Positions 55,144 to 64,000 are shown, counted from the first letter of the stretch. The stretch: 64,000 bases of DNA from Syntrophales bacterium (GCA_023228425.1 JALOBE010000002.1:83113-147112), one strand, 5' to 3'. Numbers and translations: made by a program. The notes: a model not told the origin generated them from the sequence alone.

Positions 55144-55308
55144 TCACAAACGGTTCACCGGCAGTTCCGAAGGATCGTCGAACCAGCTGAAATACCTCTG
55201 CGCGCAGGTTGCGCCTGATTGGATCAGGGCCTCCTTCTTCTCGTCCGGGATATCAAAATCCGTGGTTCCCACATCGAGTGTGTCGATATACAGCGTCCGT
55301 TGCCAGTC
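55144..55308 (-). pseudogene. 3' fragment (about 55 codons) of a patatin-like phospholipase gene split by the mobile element
   Basis: DWQRTLYIDTLDVGTTDFDIPDEKKEALIQSGATCAQRYFSWFD resembles patatin C-termini. For comparison, the C-terminus of the intact paralogue 28444-29529 reads IHMIDFD...SSKLNAGWDFLTFLHREGRHAAAEWL. Upstream of codon D (55306-08) the ORF-track sequence is integrase antisense, not patatin. It joins in frame to 63346. Confidence 0.65.
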
Positions 55309-56941
55309 TTGTAAATCTATCAGTCTTATATACCGTACTTCCCCGGTAACTGCCCTTAACCTTGGGCGTATTCTCGCCGTCCCGGTTCCCTCCCTCGTCG
55401 TCATCGTTGTCCCGATAGTCGATATCGTCGCCCTTCAGGGTCCGCAGACCGATGATCTTTCCGTACAGGAAATAATCAATCGCCGAATCTCGAGCTTTAC
55501 CCCTCTTCATGACATAAATTCCGTATGGCGTCCCTTTTTCGTCCACGCCGTCAAATAACCAGTGAAGAAGGCGTTTTTTGTCCTCGAAGGTCATCTCTGC
55601 CAGTCGTTCAGGACCGCTGTAATCCTCAAGCAACTGCCGTCTGATCGTTTCGGCTTCTCGTTTCACCTGTTCGATGTCCGGAAGGGAACGGAGTTGATCC
55701 CGGTTCCCGTCCAATTCTTCAGCGACCTTGGTTTTTGCTTGTAGTAAGGCCTGCTCCTTGGCCCGGATCGTTTCCTTTGCAAGAGTTCCGGCAAGGGCCA
55801 GATCAACCAGTTTATCAAGTTCCCGGTGAATCCGCTTCAGCTCCTTTTCTCCGGTCTTGATGTTTTTTTCCAGTAAACGGATATGATTTTCATCCGGTAA
55901 AGAATCAGCTATGGCCCGTTCAAATGAAGGAACGTCCGCAATGTTCTCAAAGATTGTCCGAAAGACAGCGTTTTCAACCGGCTTCAAAGGAACGCTATTG
56001 AAGGCCTTGCGTTTTTCGTATTTCCCCGATGGATGGGTATAATACTTGAATTCCCTCCCGTTCTTGCTCACCTGTGTCTGGCCTGACAAGGATCTTCCAC
56101 AGGCTTCGCACCTGATGAAGCCCGTCAAGACGTACTTCCGGACATCCTGCCGGGACTCAATTTTATTATGGTCCAGACGTTCCCTGATCTTCTGGATGGT
56201 AGCATCGTCAAGGATTCGGGGTATGGTGTAGGTGATCGGGTCTTGATCCTTGAAAGTGATGGTCCATGTATCTCCGCATCGGTTGGTCAACATTGTGGTC
56301 AAATAGGAATAGCCTAATGGTTGACCGTACTGGGTCCGAAGGGTGTGGGACAAATCCCGCAGTGATTCTCCCTGTAAATACCGGTCTGCCGCCCATCGAA
56401 CCAGACGGGCTTTTTCCTCGTCAAGCGACCATTCCCCGGTTTCCCTGTTGAATTTTCGCCCGAAGGGGAGTTGCCCGGAAGTGGGGATGCCCTTCTTCGC
56501 CCGTGCAATCCGGTTTTCAAGCATCTGTTCCCTGATGATTTCCCGTTCCAGCTCACTCATAACGGCGAACATCCCCAGCATTGCCTTGCCGTATTTGCTT
56601 CCGAAGTCGATTCCCTCGGATATGGAGCGAAGATCAACGCCAGCCTTGGAAAGTTCATCGTGGTTATTCAGTAGTTCACGGGCATTTCTACCGAACCGGG
56701 ACAGCCTATGAATCACCAGAACCTCAAACTTGCCTTTCTGGCCATCATACAGACATTGCAGAAGAGCGTGGCGATCCTTGACCGTTCCCCCGGAGATTCC
56801 TTCATCGGCGTATATCTCTGTCAGTTGCCATCCCTGGGCTTTAACGTAGTCCTTAATGGACTGTCGTTGAGTTGACAAGGACTCCCCGCCAACCTGTTCT
56901 GCGGAACTGACCCTGACGTATCCTGCGGCTTTCTTCTTCAT
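55253..56941 (-). CDS. large serine recombinase (integrase)
   Basis: Catalytic N-terminus GYVRVSSAEQ..., resolvase-fold core (VLVIHRLSRFGRNARE), recombinase domain, zinc-ribbon FIRCEACGRSL...YYTH, and a coiled-coil region. GGGAGGA Shine-Dalgarno. The last 17 codons lie beyond attL in host DNA. Confidence 0.92.
   Translation of the reverse strand: MKKKAAGYVRVSSAEQVGGESLSTQRQSIKDYVKAQGWQLTEIYADEGISGGTVKDRHALLQCLYDGQKGKFEVLVIHRLSRFGRNARELLNNHDELSKAGVDLRSISEGIDFGSKYGKAMLGMFAVMSELEREIIREQMLENRIARAKKGIPTSGQLPFGRKFNRETGEWSLDEEKARLVRWAADRYLQGESLRDLSHTLRTQYGQPLGYSYLTTMLTNRCGDTWTITFKDQDPITYTIPRILDDATIQKIRERLDHNKIESRQDVRKYVLTGFIRCEACGRSLSGQTQVSKNGREFKYYTHPSGKYEKRKAFNSVPLKPVENAVFRTIFENIADVPSFERAIADSLPDENHIRLLEKNIKTGEKELKRIHRELDKLVDLALAGTLAKETIRAKEQALLQAKTKVAEELDGNRDQLRSLPDIEQVKREAETIRRQLLEDYSGPERLAEMTFEDKKRLLHWLFDGVDEKGTPYGIYVMKRGKARDSAIDYFLYGKIIGLRTLKGDDIDYRDNDDDEGGNRDGENTPKVKGSYRGSTVYKTDRFTRLATDAVYRHTRCGNHGF
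55291..55332. other. putative attL (host arm CAGCGTCCGTTGCCAG | TC | element arm TTGTAAATCTATCAGTCTTATATA)
   Basis: Patatin coding similarity stops at 55308. The TC at 55307-08 is shared with the right junction. The element arm contains GTCTTATATA, inverted relative to TATATAAGAC at the other end. Confidence 0.55.
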
Positions 56942-56982
56942 TGGCCGTTTCCTCCCTATACTTTACCCTAACTGACAAAAGA

Positions 56983-57016
56983 AAATCGATTCTAGGCCCG
57001 TAAAACCCCTTTCAGC
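56983..57016 (-). repeat. motif copy A (CTAG-containing, promoter-like): minus strand CTGAAA-N15-TAGAAT
   Basis: AAATCGATTCTAGGCCCGTAAAACCCCTTTCAGC. Closely similar to the cores at 58142-58175 (inverted), 60467-60501 and 63029-63060. It lies 40-75 nt upstream of the integrase ATG. Confidence 0.7.
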
Positions 57017-57017
57017 G

Positions 57018-57224
57018 TTACTCTACATCGACGAATATCAGCGTCGTCCTAAGAAGTGTATCATAATCTCCGCTCGTGGCCTGTGCAATATAATCATCAA
57101 TGAACGCCTCATCGTAGCCAGCGTCCCGCAATGCCTTGGACACCTTGCCGAGAATGTAATAGGCATTCCCGTCTTCGCCGATCAGCTTAACCTTGACTTT
57201 CGTTATGGGTCGTGATGTACTCAT
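57018..57224 (-). CDS. small hypothetical protein (68 aa)
   Basis: GGAAGGAG Shine-Dalgarno before the ATG at 57224. The sequence KLIGEDGNAYYILGKVSKALRDAGY...SGDYDTLL resembles small proteins I recall from phage genomes, but I cannot name the family. Confidence 0.65.
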   Translation of the reverse strand: MSTSRPITKVKVKLIGEDGNAYYILGKVSKALRDAGYDEAFIDDYIAQATSGDYDTLLRTTLIFVDVE

Positions 57225-57292
57225 GCCGTAAACTCCTTCCCTTGGTTGAAGGATTTGCATCAGTCCCGGTATGGGTGCCAGCCTCGCCGGGA

Positions 57293-57985
57293 CTACTTTT
57301 TTGGCTTCGCCTTGCTTGTACGGGTGATTTGTTCACATCTATATAGCGTCCATGGTTGACCATCCATTGTTTTTACGCCTTCAGCGTTCAGAATATCGGC
57401 TATCTGTTGCCATGTTCTGCGTCTGCCATCCTTTGTCTTACGCCGCAATGCTCTGATCTTCCGAAGTACCGCTTTTCCTTCTTCCGTCTCCCGGTATCCC
57501 TTCCGGCCTCCGCACTTTACCCCTGTGGCCCGGATTCTTTCCCGGCTAGCAATGAGCTTTTTGACGAGTAGATTCTTTTCCAGTTCGGCAAAGATGCCTT
57601 GAATCTGGACAAGGGCTTTTCGCATAGGATCGGCCATGATCGCTTCCGTAACATTTTCCTCTGTTCTGGCTGATAGTAATTCAATGTCCTTGCTGGCCAG
57701 ATAGATAAGTAACGTTTCTTGGACGTGGTATTCCCTGGCAAGGCGGTCAAGCCCTTCAACAATAATCGTCCGTACTCCATCTTTCAGAATTTCTGAAACC
57801 ATCTCCTGAAATGCTGGACGGTCTTCCTCTCCCTTGGTCCCTGACACATCATCCTTGAAAACGGCGACAACTTCAATCTTGCACTTCTTTGCGTAGTCCC
57901 TGATTGCCTTTTCTTGTCGTGGGAAGCCATCACCCTTGACTTGTCCCGATCCGCTAACTCTTAAATATCCGTAGGCCTTCTTCAC
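57293..57985 (-). CDS. small serine recombinase (resolvase/invertase family) with C-terminal HTH
   Basis: AAGGAGGTGA Shine-Dalgarno before the GTG at 57985. Catalytic YGYLRVSGSGQ, RTIIVEGLDRLARE, and C-terminal ...TWQQIADILNAEGVKT (HTH). Confidence 0.88.
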   Translation of the reverse strand: MKKAYGYLRVSGSGQVKGDGFPRQEKAIRDYAKKCKIEVVAVFKDDVSGTKGEEDRPAFQEMVSEILKDGVRTIIVEGLDRLAREYHVQETLLIYLASKDIELLSARTEENVTEAIMADPMRKALVQIQGIFAELEKNLLVKKLIASRERIRATGVKCGGRKGYRETEEGKAVLRKIRALRRKTKDGRRRTWQQIADILNAEGVKTMDGQPWTLYRCEQITRTSKAKPKK

Positions 57986-58136
57986 TTTATCACCTCCTTT
58001 CATTAGTAATATATAATACTTGAATGAAAAAATCAAGCTTTTTTAATGGATTCTTAAAAATAAAAATTAATATATGATTCCCTAATGAGCCACAGTCCTG
58101 CATCACGGGACAGGAAGGGTCTACAAAGGCTCAAAA

Positions 58137-58219
58137 CAAGGAGTTGAGAAGGGGTTTATGGGTCTAGAATCGATTTACTCAATGGAGTCCATATAAAGAC
58201 ATGCCTTGGCATTAAAACG
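58137..58219 (+). repeat. left arm of the 83-bp inverted repeat (contains motif copy B, TTGAGA-N15-TAGAAT reading rightward)
   Basis: It is the reverse complement of 60424-60506 with a single mismatch (aligned by eye). Similarity decays over about 8 more bp on the inner side. Confidence 0.9.
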
Positions 58220-58243
58220 TCGTATAGAAGCGGAAAACAGCGT

Positions 58244-58885
58244 TTAACCCGGGATGAGTCTAGCCTTGAGCGGCTGAACTCGCAATAGATTGGACGGTTC
58301 ATCCTCATCAACCGGGCTCGGTTCTTCTGAATCAATAGCCGGATCAGTTACACCGGGGGAGATAAAAGGAACGGCTTTCCGCTCCCGTAGAACTTCAATG
58401 GACGGATCAGCTTTATGAATCTTACTGACCAGTCTTTCAAACATAGCAAGTTCTCGATCATTGAGCATGGAAAGGTCAGAAGTATTGTCCTGCTCGATCT
58501 GCTTTTGCTCCTGCTCCAATTCCATGATTTTGATCTGGTGCAGGGTAAGGGCAATTTTACTCAACAATTCGTAACTGCCCCGTGCTTCGGCTATCGCCTT
58601 TAATTCAAGCCTCGGATTATCCTTTTCCTCGGCCTTGTTCATGATCCGCTTGGTACGGCGTAGAAGTTCATCAATCTCTCCTAACAGGTCCATTGACCGG
58701 TGAAGCTCCTTCTGCGCCATAGCAGTTGCCAGCTGGCGGGTAATGTGATTGTCCCGGTGACGGTACAGGGCATCCTCCGACACACCATACTCACGTGATA
58801 TACTGGCGATGCTCTTTCCTTGCAGGATTTTCCTGTCCAGCTCTATTCTCTTGTCATGATTACAGACTCGACATGCTTGGGCCAT
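58244..58885 (-). CDS. HTH DNA-binding protein (phage small-terminase-like or regulator-like N-terminus), acidic C-terminal tail
   Basis: AAGGAGGA Shine-Dalgarno 7 nt before the ATG at 58885. N-terminus CRVCNHDKRIELDRKILQGKSIASISREYGVSEDALYRHRDNH is a CxxC plus HTH arrangement I recall from phage TerS-annotated and regulator proteins. Coiled-coil middle region. The functional call is weak. Confidence 0.7.
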   Translation of the reverse strand: MAQACRVCNHDKRIELDRKILQGKSIASISREYGVSEDALYRHRDNHITRQLATAMAQKELHRSMDLLGEIDELLRRTKRIMNKAEEKDNPRLELKAIAEARGSYELLSKIALTLHQIKIMELEQEQKQIEQDNTSDLSMLNDRELAMFERLVSKIHKADPSIEVLRERKAVPFISPGVTDPAIDSEEPSPVDEDEPSNLLRVQPLKARLIPG

Positions 58886-58918
58886 TGCCAATTCCTCCTT
58901 TATGGTCCGACCTTCCGG

Positions 58919-59217
58919 CCTTGATTAATGGGAAAAATTCTCCATTTATTAAAAATTAATAATTTTCCATCTATCTGCTATCTTCTTCTATACGTCCATC
59001 ATTTATGATGGACGCTTAGAATATCTTAAAATATTTTATTCTCCATCTTAATACTCTTATATATATCCTTGGTTTTTAATAGGGCAATCCTTGATTTTTA
59101 ATAGAACGATCCTTGATTTTTAATAGAACGATCCTTGATTTTTAATAGGGCAATCCTTGATTTTTAATAGACGAATATTCGTTCGAAAACTAAAGGGATT
59201 ACCCTTCGAAAACTAAA
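58919..59217. other. candidate replication origin: degenerate iteron, AT-rich tract with a 20-bp hairpin, 5 iterons, and a 2x13-bp repeat
   Basis: CCTTGATTAATGGG (58919-32). AT-rich 58933-59065 with TTCTCCAT twice and the palindrome GTCCATCAT-TT-ATGATGGAC (58994-59013). Iterons at 59066-59175. TTCGAAAACTAAA at 59182-94 and 59205-17. Confidence 0.7.
59066..59175. repeat. 5 tandem 22-bp iterons (TCCTTGATTTTTAATAG-NNCNA)
   Basis: Units begin at 59066, 59088, 59110, 59132 and 59154. The core TCCTTG(A/G)TTTTTAATAG is invariant and the last 5 nt vary. The exact 22-bp phase equals two helical turns. Confidence 0.92.
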
Positions 59218-59285
59218 CGGCTATTAAGGAGACCAAAGATAAGGATAACAAAAATGGGGATTTCCCATATATGGGTTTTCCCCTA

Positions 59286-60146
59286 TCATCTTATCCTCGG
59301 TTTCAGATAGACCTTGAACCATTTGTCAATTCTTTCCACGAGCCGGTATTTCTCCAATTGCTTCATTGGAGCTTTGATATTTGTTACGTTGACCCCTGCG
59401 TGTCGTCCCAATTCCGCAAGGGGTATTGTCACAACGTCCCATTTACGGGTACGGATATACTCGTCATGGGAAGTCATCCACTCAAACCCGTTGTCGGTTT
59501 CTACGTCACGGTAAAGTTCGTAGTCCTGAACAGCCACGCTCCGCATTGCCAGATATAGCGCCTTCGCCCGGGGTTTCAGTTTCGCCCATATCCCACTGTC
59601 GATAAGGCAAGCAAAAAATAAAAAGTAATCACCTTTCCAATGGGGGATCATATTCCTGCGGATAAATCCGGCCCGATAGAGGTAGAAATGGCGGGTGCCT
59701 TCTGATGTCATCTTCACTTCCAATAGGGGAACCGCTGTACCTTTCCCGTTCTCGTCTGTTGTTTTTAGTTTATACTCACCGTCGACAAGTTCTTTAATCC
59801 CCTTTTGAACAGTGCCCCCTCCGATCCCGGCCATCTTCCCGATGTTCTCTTGTGATATTTGGAACCAATCGTTATGCTCGAAATTTGCCTGTGAACACAT
59901 GACCGGATAAACGGCGATTGACGCTTTGCTCCATTGGTCCCCAAATAGACCGGGACCGAATATCTTTGGAAAGAAAAAATGTCTGTTCATATTCACCTCG
60001 GCCTTTGGAAACTCGAAGATAGTTGTCTTGTCATATTTCTCCGCGAACAATTCTTTTTGCTGTTGTCGCCGTTGCTCTTTTTGCTTCTTGGCCTCAAGTG
60101 CTACCTTGCCCCGAAATGGGGAGCTTCTTGACTGTTCCATGTCCAT
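59286..60146 (-). CDS. putative iteron-binding replication initiator (two winged-helix-like segments)
   Basis: It sits immediately upstream of the iteron array. Two HTH/wHTH-like segments are present: IGKMAGIGGGTVQKGIKELVD and LAELGRHAGVNVTNIKAPMKQLEKYRLVERI. The ORF track starts at a TTG (60176); the ATG at 60146 is preferred. No family confirmed. Confidence 0.6.
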   Translation of the reverse strand: MDMEQSRSSPFRGKVALEAKKQKEQRRQQQKELFAEKYDKTTIFEFPKAEVNMNRHFFFPKIFGPGLFGDQWSKASIAVYPVMCSQANFEHNDWFQISQENIGKMAGIGGGTVQKGIKELVDGEYKLKTTDENGKGTAVPLLEVKMTSEGTRHFYLYRAGFIRRNMIPHWKGDYFLFFACLIDSGIWAKLKPRAKALYLAMRSVAVQDYELYRDVETDNGFEWMTSHDEYIRTRKWDVVTIPLAELGRHAGVNVTNIKAPMKQLEKYRLVERIDKWFKVYLKPRIR

Positions 60147-60423
60147 TGACCTCGCTTTCCTTGATCGACCTCGCAAGTAAATAATGGCCGGGGGCTGGAC
60201 AAGTGCGAGGTCGTGACCTGTCTTTCGGGAGCTACCCTAGCCCCCAGCATGTCTTTACCAATATGGAAACTGATTAACATCATAATTTCACTATATTTAT
60301 ACGCCAAATTTTCCTAGCGTTCCCCTGTCGAAAGAATGCCTGGGGCAGGTCGGTTGGGGAAACCAACTTTTCGGTTGCAAGCCCAGCCCCCGGCAATAAA
60401 ACTATGTTTTTCAAGCTATGCGC

Positions 60424-60506
60424 CGTTTTAATGCCAAGGCATGTCTTTATATGGACTCCATTGAGTAAATCGATTCTAGACCCATAAACCCCCTCTCAAC
60501 TCCTTG
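60424..60506 (-). repeat. right arm of the 83-bp inverted repeat (contains motif copy C, TTGAGA-N15-TAGAAT reading leftward toward rep)
   Basis: Reverse complement of 58137-58219 with 1 mismatch (C at 60493 versus T in the left arm). Confidence 0.9.
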
Positions 60507-60709
60507 AAAAGGAGAAGGAAAAGGGACGTGCGGTCCGGCAAAAGGAGACGACAGGCGTGGGATGGATCATCCCCCCACCAAATACAAAACCCGGACCGCA
60601 CGTCCAGTAGCGGCAGGGAAAAATTCCCCGGCGTAGGAAGGAGGCGGCAGGGGAGAAAATTGACAAAACCCCACCATAACCCCGCCGGTTGAAAACCCTG
60701 CCGATTCAT

Positions 60710-61534
60710 TTACTGTACCTTTGCCCAGTTGAATTTTTCCACGTCGGCGGGCCAGCCCGGAAGATCCTCTTTCCGGATCACCCCGCCAGTAATGGGAGGC
60801 TTCATAGGGACGGGCAGACCTCGTTCTCGTGCGGCTTGTTGCGCCCGTGCAAGTCGTTCCGCTCGTTTCTTTTTCTGTTGCGCATGAAAGGTTGGAATTA
60901 CTTGTTCCCGGTAGTCGATGACATCCATCCCATGATATGGGCTTCGCTCGTCACGAATTCGGAGAACGCCTGAAGGATCGGGGCTGACCATCTGCCCATC
61001 TAATTCGGTGATTACTTTGTCCAGCCTTCCGGAATATGAATCCCCACGAGGACCGTATTGAAGGACCGCTTTGTCATCGGTCCTGCTTTCGGCTTCGATT
61101 TTTTGGGCGAGTAATTCTTCCAGCTTTTTGACCTCGTCTTTGAGAATATCCTGTTCTGCTTCCAGCTTCATCAATTCACTGTACATTTCATCATTCATCG
61201 TCGTCAGCGGGCGCATACCCCGGTTAATTCGGTGTTGATTGAGATGCTCAAATCTTTCGTTGAGTTCATCAATTTGCATCTTTTTTTTCAGCTGATGGCT
61301 TGGCGTGGCTGTTCCAAGCCTGTCCGTTTTGAACGTTCCATCAGCATCGCCCCGGTACTCTGACAGCAATTGTTCCAAGCCCCGGCGCGTGGTCATGCTG
61401 TGTAAGTGCCCGAAGTTCCACGCCGTGGATGATGCCCCACCGGGATTGAGGATAAAACTGGACTGTGCCAGTCGGTCAAATCTTCTGTCATATTCGGGGT
61501 TTATGCCTATTCTGTATCGTCTTCGTCCTGCCAT
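60710..61534 (-). CDS. hypothetical protein with central coiled-coil (274 aa)
   Basis: GAAGGAGGT Shine-Dalgarno. Heptad-rich middle region (MYSELMKLEAEQDILKDEVKKLEELLAQKIEAE). No family recognised. Confidence 0.75.
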   Translation of the reverse strand: MAGRRRYRIGINPEYDRRFDRLAQSSFILNPGGASSTAWNFGHLHSMTTRRGLEQLLSEYRGDADGTFKTDRLGTATPSHQLKKKMQIDELNERFEHLNQHRINRGMRPLTTMNDEMYSELMKLEAEQDILKDEVKKLEELLAQKIEAESRTDDKAVLQYGPRGDSYSGRLDKVITELDGQMVSPDPSGVLRIRDERSPYHGMDVIDYREQVIPTFHAQQKKKRAERLARAQQAARERGLPVPMKPPITGGVIRKEDLPGWPADVEKFNWAKVQ

Positions 61535-61547
61535 CTTCCTACCTCCT

Positions 61548-62288
61548 TCAATTCAAGCCGGTTGGCATCAAAACGTTTGGATTGTCATTGCTCGGTCGTT
61601 GGGGTTCTTGGTCTTTCCCGCCCATGCCGGTTGGTAACAGCAGATTGCGGCGATCGGCTTCTTCCCGAAGTGCCGCCTGACAAGGTGCTTTCTTTTCCTC
61701 TTCTTCCTCTGCGACTCGAACGCCCAGGGGGTACAAATGTTTTTCCATTCCTGCTCCTTCCTTTTGATAGTTCCCGATTCCTGTCCCGACGCAAGCCGGG
61801 TCTTGATCGGGCAGAAGTGCCAGATGGTCGGCCTGAACGATTTCTGTCACGATGGCCGAAAAGTAAGTGTCCTCCAGCCAACCTGAGACAAGAATATCCT
61901 CGGTAAAAACCCCAAGACTGACATTGCGGGCCCGTTGGCATAGCGATAAGTCCGCCGTGTTGATGGGGATTTCGATTGTCCCAATAACCCCCTTCCGCCG
62001 TTGGTCGTACTTCGTACCCACCAGAACGCCTCGGCTGAACTTCTGTTGAACCTGAGCGCTGTAGTTGATAGATACGAAATGCCCTTCCGAATTTTCTGGA
62101 TGTCGCATTGTAACCGGGATATTGCTGAAGTCCTTTGCATGACGTTCCAAAACTCCGATGGGCCACAATACAGGCCCATTGCTCCCTGCATGAATACCGG
62201 GAACCGCTAGCAAGACCGGAGCTGTCAACTTCCCGTTCTTGACTGTCCACGGCGCAACGGCGTTACAGTTTAGGTGTTTCAGTTTCAC
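61548..62288 (-). CDS. phage-type protein resembling DUF2213 (head scaffold/maturation-associated)
   Basis: The GTG start overlaps the XRE stop (GTGA), with an AAGGAGGA Shine-Dalgarno. PVTMRHP, NVSLGVF and IVQADHLALLPDQDPACVG match my recollection of DUF2213 motifs (..T..HP.., ElS.GY, NH(L/V)AL(V/L)..GR.G). The C-terminal tail is acidic and Pro-rich. Confidence 0.7.
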   Translation of the reverse strand: MKLKHLNCNAVAPWTVKNGKLTAPVLLAVPGIHAGSNGPVLWPIGVLERHAKDFSNIPVTMRHPENSEGHFVSINYSAQVQQKFSRGVLVGTKYDQRRKGVIGTIEIPINTADLSLCQRARNVSLGVFTEDILVSGWLEDTYFSAIVTEIVQADHLALLPDQDPACVGTGIGNYQKEGAGMEKHLYPLGVRVAEEEEEKKAPCQAALREEADRRNLLLPTGMGGKDQEPQRPSNDNPNVLMPTGLN

Positions 62289-62758
62289 TCGGATTCCTCC
62301 TTCGTTTTAGTCCACCGCCTTTCCAATATAGCGATGATTTTATCCTTCTCTTTCTCTGTAAAACCTTGCGTTGCCTCGTCAACTTGCTGAGCAATCTTTT
62401 CGATGCTGGGTCGGTCATACCCGGCAAGGACCAGAAGCTGAACAAAAGCCCCTTGCCGATACAGTCGAGCGACATGGACCAGAGCCGCATCAATGGGATA
62501 ACGCGCATCAAAAAGATTCTGGACAGCCTGCAACGTGACATTGGCAAGATCGGGGGGGGCGGCTTCCCATTCGATTTCGCCCACCGCATCAAGGACCTGT
62601 TCAATCTTCATCAGCGGAAGTAAATCGAGCAGACGGGTTTTGCCTTGTTCAAGCATAGATAAATTCGACTGCTGGAACCCTGTCTTTTCAGCAAGCTCCT
62701 GTTGGGTCATTCCGGCCCGTTTTCTTGCTTGCCTCATTGTCAATTTCCGCATCTTCAT
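62285..62758 (-). CDS. XRE-family HTH transcriptional regulator
   Basis: MRQARKRAGMTQQELAEKTGFQQSNLSMLEQGK is a classic Cro/C1-type HTH. It is the first gene at the right end of the element. Confidence 0.88.
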   Translation of the reverse strand: MKMRKLTMRQARKRAGMTQQELAEKTGFQQSNLSMLEQGKTRLLDLLPLMKIEQVLDAVGEIEWEAAPPDLANVTLQAVQNLFDARYPIDAALVHVARLYRQGAFVQLLVLAGYDRPSIEKIAQQVDEATQGFTEKEKDKIIAILERRWTKTKEESE

Positions 62759-63028
62759 TCCTCCGGTTCGTTATTATTATTTAATATATATTATTAACGA
62801 ACAAAAGTCTAGAAAAAAGTCATTTTCTGACGAATTATTTAGGTCTAATTTTATAACCTCAAAGAATCATTGATAATAATGAAATACAGAATTTATAAAA
62901 AGAATGGGTTTTTATATTTATAGCAAATACATGATTGTGAAAAATGCCCAATCAGAAACAACCGAATTAGCGCCCTAGAAACGCCGATCCGTTTCAGGCA
63001 GGTAAATATATGCCCCAGGTAAAGAAAA

Positions 63029-63060
63029 CCGTTTCTAGACAATAAAACCCCCTTTCAACG
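63029..63060 (-). repeat. motif copy D (minus strand TTGAAA-N15-TAGAAA)
   Basis: CCGTTTCTAGACAATAAAACCCCCTTTCAACG. It lies in the AT-rich 585-bp leader region upstream of the XRE gene. Further CTAG-containing fragments are at 62807, 62975 and 63283. Confidence 0.6.
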
Positions 63061-63316
63061 GTATGTTTTTGATAAAGATAAACGCTGATCCTTTGTCTAT
63101 ATTGTAGGGATTTTGACAGGTTCGTTTAAGTTGGGCTTGTGATTGTTTAGAAGTGGCGGATATTGCAGAGGATAAAAATTGCTGTCAGGTGGGTGGATTC
63201 TCCGGGGGCTTTGTATTATCTTTCTTCAATAGTGACAAACCCGCCTCCGATGATTGACCGGGGCGGGGCGTGGTGAAGGGGAAGGCCTAGACAGCGGCCT
63301 TGACCTTCCAATTGAC

Positions 63317-63362
63317 TATATAAGACCTATTTTCTTGCTTTCATCACTGTGAAGGTGCTGGT
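63317..63362. other. putative attR (element arm TATATAAGACCTATTTTCTTGCTTTCA | TC | host arm ACTGTGAAGGTGCTGG)
   Basis: The patatin frame acquires an element-encoded tail ...ESKKIGLI-stop left of 63343. The TC at 63344-45 matches the TC at 55307-08. Confidence 0.55.
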
Positions 63363-64000
63363 TCTCCTGCACCCGGAGGACCGTCTTTACGAGTGCCCCG
63401 GCAAAGTCCGAGAATTTCTTGATGGCCCGACCGGACGGAAGCTCGTCGTAGCGGTAAAGGGCGATTTCCTCCCTCGTGTCCAGACGCATGCCCAGGGTCT
63501 GCCGATTATACACATAGGGACTGCGACCGGGCCGGAGGGCGAGAAAGCGTTCGTTCTCCCGGGCGTAGTAGGACGTCTGCCTGGCCGCCGCCCCCTCATC
63601 CTCCATATCGATGTACCGTTGGCGGTCAAATAGTTTTACGGGATAATTGAGTACCATGCCGCCGTCCACATAGACATCGTTGCGTTCTCCCCGGCGGACG
63701 GCGGCGAAAAAGAGGGGGATGGACATGCTGATCCGCAGGGCGGTCGCCAGGGGCATGTCACCCTGTCGTTCCCGGGAGAATACTTCGGCATAGCCCGTGC
63801 TAAGATTGGTTCCTGTCACGTAAAGATCGGGACCACCCTGTTTCGCCAGGTCATCAAAGGTCGCCCGGGCGTTTCCCAGCCGGTCGGCAATGATCGAGCC
63901 GATCCAGGTGGAAAAGAAATCCCCTCTGTACCACCCGAATTCCCGGGCAAGTCGGCGGACATCGCGAATAACCCCGAAGGAATCGTCCATGAAGTTTTTG
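63346..64000 (-). pseudogene. 5' portion of the split patatin-like phospholipase gene (continues beyond the right window edge)
   Basis: The frame is open to nt 64000. Catalytic-Asp region VYVDGGMVLNYPV and MSIPLFFAAV are typical of patatin. The GxSxG nucleophile should lie off-window. Confidence 0.7.

What the first reader, a model, noticed from the sequence alone, without database searches (positions are those of the whole stretch)
55144..64000. An ~8.0-kb serine-integrase element splits a patatin-like phospholipase gene, and the junctions reconstruct to the base
The minus-strand ORF entering from the right edge is a patatin (…VYVDGGMVLNYPV…VLRVQENQHLHSD) that ends in an 8-residue unrelated tail at 63316. 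About 8 kb to the left, 55306-55144 encodes DWQRTLYIDTLDVGTTDFDIPDEKKEALIQSGATCAQRYFSWFD…, which looks like a patatin C-terminus. Both junctions share the dinucleotide TC (55307-08 and 63344-45). Joining them gives CAGCGTCCGTTGCCAG-TC-ACTGTGAAGGTGCTGG, which reads through in frame as …HLHS-D-WQRTLYID…. A 2-bp crossover with no long direct repeats is what a serine integrase leaves, and such an integrase sits at the left end. The element-proximal arms carry an inverted 10-mer (GTCTTATATA at 55323-32 and TATATAAGAC at 63317-26). These lie 14 and 17 nt from the core, which is roughly as expected for the two half-sites of an attP. Gene-splitting elements of this kind (skin, SPbeta and similar intervening elements) can act as excision-dependent switches. 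Here the interrupted gene is a lipase-type effector of the sort often used in defence and abortive-infection systems. Its upstream neighbours are off-window.
Basis: partly seen in the sequence, partly recalled or inferred. Interest (0 to 1): 0.8.

Follow-up and report, generated by a model that had tools for sequence, protein, structure and literature searches.

The report
Serine-integrase element splitting a patatin gene

Summary
The minus-strand patatin gene is split by an 8,032-bp element (55309-63340) flanked by two copies of a TC core (55307-08 and 63341-42). Intact homologues read HLHSDDWQRT, and the closest intact relative aligns to both flanks without gaps, with exactly 2 nt of overlap. 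With the corrected core, the inverted 10-mers lie 14 and 14 nt from it. The same arm motif and spacing recur in related elements.

The element carries a large serine recombinase, a small serine recombinase, an XRE repressor, a Rep-like gene beside five 22-bp iterons, an int-alpA RNA motif and several proteins of unknown function. It has no phage structural or conjugation genes.

The defence-effector idea is not supported. The patatin is the last gene of an RND efflux operon and belongs to a widely conserved family of standalone genes.

The switch idea has no support either. No empty site or circle junction was found. Every independent assembly carries the interrupted allele. The integrase has Arg in place of a near-invariant zinc-ribbon Cys.

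Side findings: attP lies inside the 3' end of the integrase gene, and three relatives split integron-integrase genes just before the catalytic tyrosine.

The parts
63343..64000 (-). Host patatin gene, N-terminal part (runs off the window; residues about 72-289 of a 343-aa protein). The last host codon, GAT (D289), is at 63345-63343.
   Evidence: PF01734; 100% identical to P0002 and L003/L004; ungapped 85% nt match to the intact relative L001 down to 63341
63341..63342 (.). Core dinucleotide TC (GA on the gene strand), right-hand copy. This is the corrected crossover position.
   Evidence: 2-nt overlap of the two L001 alignments; the DD requirement; symmetric 14-nt spacing; the P' arm similarity to L020 starts immediately after it
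63316..63340 (-). Element right end (P' arm). It contains the 10-mer TATATAAGAC (63317-26) and supplies the foreign tail (E)SKKIGLI plus stop to the truncated patatin.
   Evidence: 21 of 24 nt identical to the P' arm of the L020 remnant
55309..55332 (-). Element left end (P arm) with the 10-mer GTCTTATATA (55323-32). It lies inside the integrase ORF, where the motif encodes VYKT.
   Evidence: the motif is conserved in the int 3' ends of L005, L006, L010, L011 and L020
55307..55308 (.). Core dinucleotide TC, left-hand copy
55144..55306 (-). Host patatin gene, C-terminal 54 codons plus stop (DWQRTLYIDTLDV...NRL*), detached from the rest of the gene
   Evidence: dN/dS versus L001 is 0.07, so there is no decay
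55253..56941 (-). Large serine recombinase (562 aa). The ORF runs across the core, so its last 17 aa are host-encoded when integrated. After excision they would be KQENRSYIVNWKVKAAV.
   Evidence: PF00239 E=8e-36, PF13408 26.3 bits; phrog_95 integrase E=4e-85; tails computed and by hand, 3 sequence
56009..56011 (-). Integrase codon 311, CGC (Arg), where 28 of 30 relatives have Cys (TGC/TGT). This is the probable fourth zinc-ribbon ligand.
57018..57260 (-). 80-aa protein of unknown function (phrog_1933), directly upstream of int. It is a candidate accessory factor or RDF by position only.
   Evidence: no homologue in related loci
57293..58036 (-). Small serine recombinase (247 aa; resolvase/invertase type)
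   Evidence: PF00239 E=4e-27. A small serine recombinase lies just upstream of int in relatives too: L005, L006, L011, L080.
58137..58227 (.). Arm 1 of a 91-nt inverted repeat (97% complementary). It contains ATGCC-AA-GGCAT.
58244..58891 (-). 215-aa HTH protein (weak HTH_28), conserved in related elements
59065..59193 (.). Five tandem 22-bp iterons (ATCCTTGATTTTTAATAGAACG); probable replication origin
   Evidence: repeats also sit right after the rep-like genes of L005 and L018
59286..60176 (-). 296-aa Rep-like protein (HTH_36; weak match to DnaD-like helicase loader)
60323..60393 (-). int-alpA RNA motif (RF02996), upstream of the Rep-like gene
   Evidence: 36.1 bits against a gathering score of 35.8, E=1.4e-4
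60416..60506 (.). Arm 2 of the 91-nt inverted repeat
   Evidence: Logan contigs break inside these arms, at 58180 and 60463
60710..61534 (-). 274-aa protein of unknown function. It belongs to a family of about 450 clusters, and homologues occur in four related loci (L010, L011, L014, L018).
   Evidence: AF2 pLDDT 93.9; no significant PDB, BFVD, PHROG or Pfam match
61548..62288 (-). 246-aa orphan protein
   Evidence: the single-sequence model is unusable (pLDDT 32)
62285..62758 (-). XRE-family HTH regulator (157 aa); probable element repressor
   Evidence: PF01381 E=1.5e-10; phrog_3 and phrog_8

Best explanation
A small (8,032 bp plus a 2-bp core), low-G+C integrative element has been inserted by its own large serine recombinase into codon 289/290 of a conserved 343-aa patatin-like phospholipase gene. 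That gene is the last in an OEP-MFP-RND efflux operon of a Syntrophales bacterium.

Recombination occurred at a TC/GA core between two sites. attB is CAGCGTCCGTTGCCAG-TC-ATCACTGTGAAGGTGCTGG. attP is about 50 bp, TATATAAGAC-N14-TC-N14-GTCTTATATA, and lies inside the 3' end of the integrase gene.

Integration truncates the patatin: it loses 54 strongly conserved residues and gains 8 foreign ones. Integration also swaps the last 17 residues of the integrase.

The cargo points to an element that is kept silent and replicates as a circle after excision. It comprises an XRE repressor, a Rep-like gene with five iterons, a small serine recombinase and an int-alpA RNA. This resembles an integrative plasmid or a satellite. 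It is neither a phage nor a conjugative element.

What is shown: the anatomy, the junctions, the in-silico restoration and the family-wide att architecture. What is inferred: the integrase performed the insertion, the insertion inactivates the patatin, and the element replicates. The most likely biological reading is plain insertional disruption by a mobile element, possibly now immobilised by integrase C311R, and not a regulated switch.
For: - Intact homologues are colinear across the corrected joint.
- The two L001 alignments are ungapped and overlap by 2 nt.
- The integrase has the serine-recombinase domains and invariant S12, R10, R82 and R85.
- The 10-mer pair is far beyond chance.
- The same motif + 14 nt + core architecture is found in relatives. 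In L005, L006 and L010, homology to the integron-integrase C-terminus begins exactly at the predicted core. The L020 remnant carries both arms with matching AC cores.
- G+C drops inside the element.
- Both junctions occur in independent assemblies.
- The iterons and Rep-like gene are present, and repeats also follow the rep-like genes of L005 and L018.
- The int-alpA RNA passes its gathering score.
- The lost patatin segment is near-invariant in homologues.
- The operon context is an RND efflux system.
Against: - No experiment or read-level data were available.
- The Recombinase domain PF07508 is just below its cut-off (19.4 against 21.1 bits).
- No RDF was identified.
- Replication is inferred only from weak HTH_36/DnaD-like matches and the iterons.
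- Three cargo proteins have no assignable function.
- Both gene halves show low dN/dS (0.13 and 0.07). That fits a recent insertion, but it equally fits continued selection through reversible excision.
Confidence: 0.9

Rival explanations
1. Regulated gene switch. The element excises under particular conditions and restores the patatin gene, as SPbeta restores spsM or skin restores sigK.
For: - Excision would restore the ORF exactly.
- Both gene halves are undecayed.
- The element keeps an intact-length integrase and a repressor.
- There is precedent in SPbeta, where SprA plus SprB excise the prophage (PMC4191935).
Against: - No empty site or circle junction was found in JGI metagenome contigs or IMG/VR.
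- The reconstructed patatin and the excised-form integrase are absent from 15 billion proteins.
- Only the interrupted allele is seen, in three Logan runs and three NCBI accessions.
- The integrase has C311R at a near-invariant zinc-ribbon Cys.
- No RDF was recognised.
- The host is not known to have a terminally differentiating cell type (general knowledge).
- Relatives insert in unrelated sites, including an intergenic one, as ordinary mobile elements do.
Confidence: 0.08
2. Grounded remnant. The element is fixed and can no longer move, because the integrase is crippled by C311R. The patatin gene is then a young pseudogene.
For: - Codon 311 is CGC where relatives have TGC or TGT.
- Cys is kept in 28 of 30 relatives, in the C-x2-C...H...C pattern of the zinc-ribbon match.
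- The interrupted state is seen in every assembly.
- A decayed relative about 2 kb long exists in L020.
Against: - Two other family members also lack one of these Cys residues.
- The zinc-ligand role is inferred from the pattern and not from a structure (one search found no solved relative of this domain).
- All element ORFs are intact and there is no decay in the gene halves.
Confidence: 0.3
3. The junction lies exactly where the reader placed it (core at 63344-45, one Asp in the restored protein).
For: TC is also present at 63344-45, and the join stays in frame.
Against: - All aligned intact homologues have DD.
- Host homology extends to 63341.
- The 10-mer spacing would be asymmetric at 14 and 17 nt.
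- Similarity of the P' arm to L020 starts at 63340, not 63343.
Confidence: 0.02
4. Assembly chimera joining a plasmid-like contig to the chromosome.
For: The window comes from a metagenome-assembled genome, and Logan contigs break inside the element.
Against: - Both junctions are crossed by 100% identical contigs from independent runs.
- The breaks coincide with the 91-nt inverted repeat.
- The two flanks fit an intact gene to the base.
Confidence: 0.01

Closest known systems
SPbeta (SprA/SprB, spsM) and skin (SpoIVCA, sigK) intervening elements of Bacillus; the fdxN element (XisF) of Anabaena
   Same: A large serine recombinase sits at the element's end. The element splits a protein-coding gene, and precise excision restores the ORF (PMC4191935).
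   Different: Those are 48-134 kb prophage-derived elements with demonstrated, developmentally timed excision and known accessory factors. This one is 8 kb with no phage genes, no excision evidence and no RDF. The integrase is only 26-28% identical to phage integrases and is far below the XisF and Ccr equivalog cut-offs.
Ordinary serine-integrase phages and elements that insert in genes (Bxb1 in groEL1, A118/phi10403S in comK, SCCmec CcrAB in rlmH)
   Same: Short att sites, a 2-bp central crossover, no long direct repeats, imperfect inverted symmetry of attP, and directionality that needs an RDF (PMC12286644 and PMC1470463 abstracts).
   Different: A different integrase lineage, found in Desulfobacterota, Bacteroidota and Balneolales metagenome genomes. 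attP is inside the int coding sequence, and the cargo is plasmid-like.
Myxophage Mx8 intP/intX
   Same: attP lies within the integrase coding sequence, so integration gives the integrase gene a new 3' end (PMC6070905).
   Different: Mx8 Int is a tyrosine recombinase. Here the enzyme is a serine recombinase, only the last 17 residues beyond the conserved VYKT motif are exchanged, and no functional consequence is known.
Phage satellites (PICI-like) and integrative plasmids
   Same: Small size, integrase, XRE repressor, a Rep-like gene next to iterons, and no virion genes.
   Different: No recognisable packaging-hijack genes (small terminase, capsid-size factors) and no primase-helicase. Assignment to this class is by analogy only.

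Membership tests
Large serine recombinase (serine integrase) | N-terminal resolvase-type catalytic domain with the nucleophilic Ser and conserved Arg residues | tested here: met
   PF00239 E=7.8e-36, residues 5-151. S12, R10, R82 and R85 are invariant in 30 relatives. PDB matches to TP901-1 integrase and to resolvase catalytic domains.
Large serine recombinase (serine integrase) | C-terminal recombinase domain followed by a zinc-ribbon domain | tested here: inconclusive
   PF13408 scores 26.3 bits against a 25.3 cut-off. PF07508 scores 19.4 against 21.1, just below. One conserved Cys of the C-x2-C...H...C pattern is Arg in this copy. No solved relative of this region by sequence.
Large serine recombinase (serine integrase) | Short att sites with a 2-bp crossover, no long target duplication, and attP with inverted half-sites | tested here: met
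   Exactly 2 nt of overlap when an intact relative is aligned to both flanks. A perfect 10-bp inverted motif lies 14 nt either side of the core.
Large serine recombinase (serine integrase) | Catalyses attP x attB integration; excision needs an RDF | not testable with these tools
   Needs a recombination assay. No RDF candidate beyond position (p80, 57018-57260).
Regulated intervening element / active lysogeny switch (skin, SPbeta, fdxN, phi10403S) | The element interrupts a gene, and precise excision restores a full-length conserved ORF | tested here: met
   In-silico join equals the homologue sequence, HLHSDDWQRT
Regulated intervening element / active lysogeny switch (skin, SPbeta, fdxN, phi10403S) | Excision actually occurs (empty site and circle detectable) under defined conditions | tested here: inconclusive
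   No empty site or circle in JGI metagenome contigs or IMG/VR, and no matching proteins. Assembled contigs cannot see rare events, and no positive control for the integrated junction could be run in that collection.
Defence-system patatin effector (e.g. CBASS CapV) | Reaches the family model's cut-off | tested here: not met
   NF041079 CBASS_lipase scores 21.9 bits against a 200 cut-off. The best PADLOC match is a generic phospholipase model at E=2.6e-8.
Defence-system patatin effector (e.g. CBASS CapV) | Encoded next to a sensor or cyclase partner in a defence operon | tested here: not met
   Upstream genes are OEP, MFP and an RND pump, with a 4-bp overlap to the patatin. Orthologues stand next to Fic or GGDEF genes.
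Phage satellite / PICI-like element | Integrase plus repressor plus replication module with ori | tested here: inconclusive
   Int, XRE and a Rep-like gene (HTH_36 22.7 bits; phrog_186 E=2e-4) plus 5 x 22-bp iterons. The Rep assignment is weak.
Phage satellite / PICI-like element | Genes that hijack helper packaging or capsid assembly | tested here: not met
   None recognised by Pfam, PHROGs or NCBIfam. No tblastn match of the 246- and 274-aa proteins in 50,697 phage records.
int-alpA RNA (RF02996) | Covariance-model score at or above Rfam's gathering score | tested here: met
   36.1 bits against 35.8, full-length match 1-71/71, at 60323-60393(-). The margin is small.

The most novel reading that the evidence does not exclude
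This integrase lineage may define a class of small replicative integrative elements with two unusual properties.
1. attP is embedded in the integrase's own 3' end, so the enzyme's C-terminal tail differs between the free and integrated states. This could be a built-in way to bias direction or stability, as in Mx8 but for a serine enzyme.
2. Members home to conserved coding sequence close to functionally essential residues: the patatin C-terminus here, and integron integrase 25 codons from its end, just before the catalytic tyrosine, in three relatives from two phyla. That would make them reversible on/off cassettes for host functions, including integron activity.
Probability: 0.12. Interest if true: 0.7.

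Novelty: new member of a known kind. Interest (0 to 1): 0.38.

Why it matters
In itself this is one more gene disrupted by a serine-integrase element, which is a well-known kind of event.

Its practical value is a cleanly defined attB/attP pair for an uncharacterised integrase lineage. Across the five identified sites of this lineage the attP arm architecture is conserved (motif-N14-core-N14-motif), while the core dinucleotide (GA, GT, AC) and the target vary. That is the sort of natural series used to study and re-engineer serine-integrase specificity.

The side observation that relatives split integron-integrase genes immediately upstream of the catalytic tyrosine would, if confirmed, be a new interaction between two recombination systems.

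Tried and rejected
Rejected.
- **Empty site and circle junction.** Patterns tolerating either core position were searched in JGI metagenome contigs and IMG/VR, with nothing found.
- **Exact-sequence look-ups.** Both versions of the restored patatin and both versions of the excised-form integrase are absent.
- **Exact look-up of the Rep-like protein.** Not on record, probably because of a different start call.
- **Function of the 246-aa protein.** No Pfam, PHROG, NCBIfam, PADLOC or phage tblastn match. The single-sequence AlphaFold model is unusable (pLDDT 32).
- **Mapping Cys311 onto a solved zinc ribbon by sequence.** No match.
- **Apparent 33-nt direct repeat at the two ends of L010.** Judged a chance match after translation.
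- **Inverted repeats like the 91-nt pair in relatives.** None found.
- **Promoter and terminator scan of the element.** Not above shuffled expectation.
- **Literature.** No paper found describing serine-recombinase elements in patatin or intI genes.

Full report
**1. Observation**

ORF listing and raw sequence confirm three features on the minus strand:
- a patatin ORF entering from 64000 and stopping at 63316;
- an ORF at 55404-55144 whose last 54 codons read DWQRTLYIDTLDV...NRL;
- a 562-aa ORF at 56941-55253.

Pfam identifies the first as Patatin (PF01734, E=5e-11). It identifies the third as a large serine recombinase: Resolvase E=8e-36, Zn_ribbon_recom 26.3 bits, and Recombinase 19.4 bits, which is just under its cut-off. 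PHROGs calls it an integrase (phrog_95, E=4e-85).

**2. Is the gene really split, and where exactly?**

The joined protein finds 1,809 homologues at E<=1e-10. The best are about 344 aa long, 68-86% identical and cover the query 100%. The only truncated hit is P0002 (297 aa), which is this locus itself, annotated in Syntrophales metagenome genomes.

The right junction sequence ttcatc contains two TC dinucleotides. Using 63341-42 instead of 63344-45 restores the second Asp.

This was tested at the DNA level with the closest intact relative (L001, 86% aa identity). blastn gives two ungapped segments: q10210-10869 = window 64000-63341, and q10868-11036 = window 55308-55140. They overlap by exactly 2 nt, GA on the gene strand.

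The element is therefore 55309-63340 (8,032 bp), flanked by two copies of a TC core.

With this core, the two perfect 10-mers lie 14 and 14 nt from the crossover. They are the only two copies in 64 kb, against an expected 0.01. Element G+C is about 0.48 against about 0.60 in the flanks.

Independent Logan contigs that are 100% identical to the window cross each junction. An assembly artefact is therefore excluded.

**3. Family evidence for the att architecture**

The integrase has about 200 relatives at E<=1e-20. The closest are 65-73% identical over about 91% of the length, and their C-terminal tails differ. Contexts were fetched from NCBI, JGI and Logan assemblies, GTDB genomes and IMG/VR.

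- The arm motif (G)TATATAAGAC, which encodes (V/I)YKT, is conserved inside the 3' end of these int genes.
- Placing the core 14 nt downstream of the motif predicts the junctions of the relatives.
- In L005 (Desulfobacter postgatei), L006 (a Desulfobacteraceae MAG) and L010 (a Balneolaceae MAG), the peptide encoded from the predicted core onward matches the last 25 positions (291-315 of 315) of the integron-integrase model TIGR02249 (E about 1e-8). The match starts exactly at the predicted core.
- L020 holds a decayed copy about 2 kb long with both arms and an AC core at each end. Its P' arm (AAGCAAATAAATAAGTCTTATATA) is 21 of 24 nt identical to the window's, and the similarity begins immediately after the core.

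These results independently support both the corrected core position and the reading of the 10-mers as integrase half-site motifs.

Targets differ between members:
- the patatin 3' end (this window);
- the intI 3' end (three loci);
- the 5' end of a TIM-barrel gene (L011);
- an intergenic site (L020).

**4. attP inside int**

In all five loci with an identifiable core (the window, L005, L006, L010 and L011), the integrase ORF continues past the core.

In the window, the integrated form ends in LATDAVYRHTRCGNHGF. After excision it would end in KQENRSYIVNWKVKAAV. This follows from the sequences.

The closest precedent is myxophage Mx8, whose attP lies within int so that integration gives int a new 3' end (PMC6070905). 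Mx8 Int is a tyrosine recombinase. Whether the tail matters here is unknown, because the conserved part of the protein ends at about the VYKT motif.

**5. The element's cargo**

All genes are on the minus strand. In order from the right end:
- an XRE-family regulator (PF01381);
- a 246-aa orphan protein;
- a 274-aa protein from a family of about 450 clusters, with a confident AlphaFold model (pLDDT 94) but no Pfam, PHROG, PDB or BFVD relative;
- an int-alpA RNA motif (RF02996, 36.1 bits against 35.8);
- a 296-aa Rep-like protein (HTH_36; weak DnaD-like match);
- five 22-bp iterons;
- a 215-aa HTH protein;
- a 247-aa small serine recombinase;
- an 80-aa protein (phrog_1933);
- the integrase.

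Homologues of the HTH protein, the Rep-like protein, the 274-aa protein and the small recombinase recur in related elements. Repeats also sit right after the rep-like genes of L005 and L018.

No capsid, terminase, relaxase or coupling-protein genes were found. The IMG/VR relative L080 likewise has none.

I infer an integrative element that replicates as a circle, of the integrative-plasmid or satellite kind. This is an inference from weak Rep matches plus the iterons.

**6. The interrupted gene**

The off-window upstream genes are OEP, MFP and an RND pump. The RND gene overlaps the patatin start by 4 bp. The arrangement is the same in the intact relative L001.

More distant orthologues stand alone next to Fic or GGDEF genes. 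The protein scores 21.9 bits against a 200-bit cut-off for the CBASS lipase model and matches only generic PADLOC phospholipase profiles.

This is a broadly conserved single-gene family, about 70% identical across Desulfobacterota. It is not a defence effector.

The 54 residues removed by the insertion are among the most conserved in the family, so loss of function is likely. This is an inference.

**7. Switch or plain disruption?**

Excision would restore the gene exactly, and neither half shows decay: dN/dS against L001 is 0.13 for the N-terminal part and 0.07 for the C-terminal part. Both facts fit a recent insertion as well as a reversible one.

Against an active switch:
- No empty site or circle junction was found in JGI metagenome contigs or IMG/VR, using patterns that tolerate either core position.
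- The restored patatin and the excised-form integrase are absent from the 15-billion-protein collection.
- The interrupted allele is present in three NCBI accessions and at least three Logan runs.
- Integrase codon 311 is CGC (Arg) where 28 of 30 relatives have Cys (TGC/TGT), in the C-x2-C...H...C pattern of the zinc-ribbon match.
- No RDF is recognisable.

Assembled contigs cannot exclude rare excision, so this point stays open. I put about 0.08 on a regulated switch and about 0.3 on the element being grounded.

**8. Comparison and novelty**

Mechanistically this is a standard serine-integrase insertion. Such integrases use short att sites, and excision requires an RDF (PMC12286644 abstract). 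Gene splitting with exact restoration is known from SPbeta/spsM (PMC4191935) and, from general knowledge, from skin, fdxN and Listeria comK prophages.

The integrase is not a member of the XisF or Ccr equivalogs. It is only 26-28% identical to phage integrases.

The verdict is a new member of a known kind. The family-level features (attP within int, intI-splitting relatives, and a conserved pairing of a small with a large serine recombinase) are the parts worth following up.

Noticed in passing
L005:11637-11743, L006:11538-11640, L010:11607-11720: Three relatives of the integrase appear to be inserted in integron-integrase (intI) genes. They come from Desulfobacter postgatei, a Desulfobacteraceae MAG and a Balneolaceae MAG. 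The DNA from the predicted core (GT) onward encodes ...TTMIYTHVLNRGGKGVKSPLD, which matches positions 291-315 of 315 of TIGR02249. The split therefore falls just before the catalytic tyrosine. The N-terminal intI halves lie beyond the 10-kb flanks and were not seen. No paper describing this was found.
   Followed up: partly
window 55253-55308 (and int 3' ends in L005, L006, L010, L011): The integrase ORF runs across the crossover core in all five loci with an identifiable core. Integration therefore replaces the enzyme's last residues (17 aa in this window). This parallels Mx8 intP/intX but in a serine recombinase. The functional meaning is unknown.
   Followed up: partly
window 56009-56011: Integrase residue 311 is Arg (CGC), where 28 of 30 relatives have Cys in the zinc-ribbon C-x2-C...H...C pattern. 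It is a single T-to-C change that may cripple DNA binding.
   Followed up: partly
window 58137-58227 and 60416-60506: A 91-nt inverted repeat (97% complementary) flanks a 2,188-bp segment holding the Rep-like gene, the iterons, the int-alpA RNA and the 215-aa HTH gene. The small serine recombinase gene sits right beside one arm. The arms contain ATGCC-AA-GGCAT, which resembles an invertase crossover site. This may be an invertible segment. Logan contigs from three runs break inside the arms, which any repeat longer than the k-mer would cause.
   Followed up: partly
window 56978-57020, 58145-58179, 60462-60504, 63021-63063: A conserved core of about 35-43 nt (AAATCGATTCTAGACCCATAAACCCCCTTTCAA) occurs in four intergenic gaps of the element (not in the iteron-bearing gap between the Rep-like and HTH genes). 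Three copies face one way and one is inverted, and three lie upstream of int, the Rep-like gene and the XRE gene. It may be an operator, a promoter or a recombinase-binding site.
   Followed up: no
window 59065-59193: Five tandem 22-bp iterons lie immediately after the Rep-like gene. Analogous repeats follow the rep-like genes of L005 (5284-5362) and L018 (7036-7118).
   Followed up: partly
window 60323-60393 (-): A match to the Rfam int-alpA RNA motif (RF02996) just above the gathering score (36.1 against 35.8 bits), upstream of the Rep-like gene.
   Followed up: no
window 57293-58036; L005:8158-8733; L006:9263-9901; L011:9260-9919; L080:9271-9981: A small serine recombinase gene lies immediately upstream of the large one in the window and in four related elements (L005, L006, L011, L080). 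This pairing suggests a shared role such as multimer resolution, inversion or help with excision.
   Followed up: no
window 60710-61534: The 274-aa protein belongs to a sizeable family: 452 representatives at E<=1e-3, and homologues in four related loci. Its AlphaFold model is very confident (pLDDT 94; long helical hairpins plus a small beta domain), yet it has no Pfam, PHROG, PDB or BFVD relative.
   Followed up: partly
L020:8606-10657: A decayed remnant of a related element, about 2 kb long, in a delta-proteobacterial MAG. It keeps both att arms with AC cores and an integrase fragment, and is inserted in an intergenic site downstream of an outer-membrane-protein-like gene.
   Followed up: partly
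L080:11499-12356: In an IMG/VR contig with a 54%-identical integrase, the int 3' end overlaps by about 190 nt an ORF for an enoyl-ACP reductase-like protein. This suggests yet another coding-sequence target. The contig has no phage structural genes despite being filed as viral.
   Followed up: no
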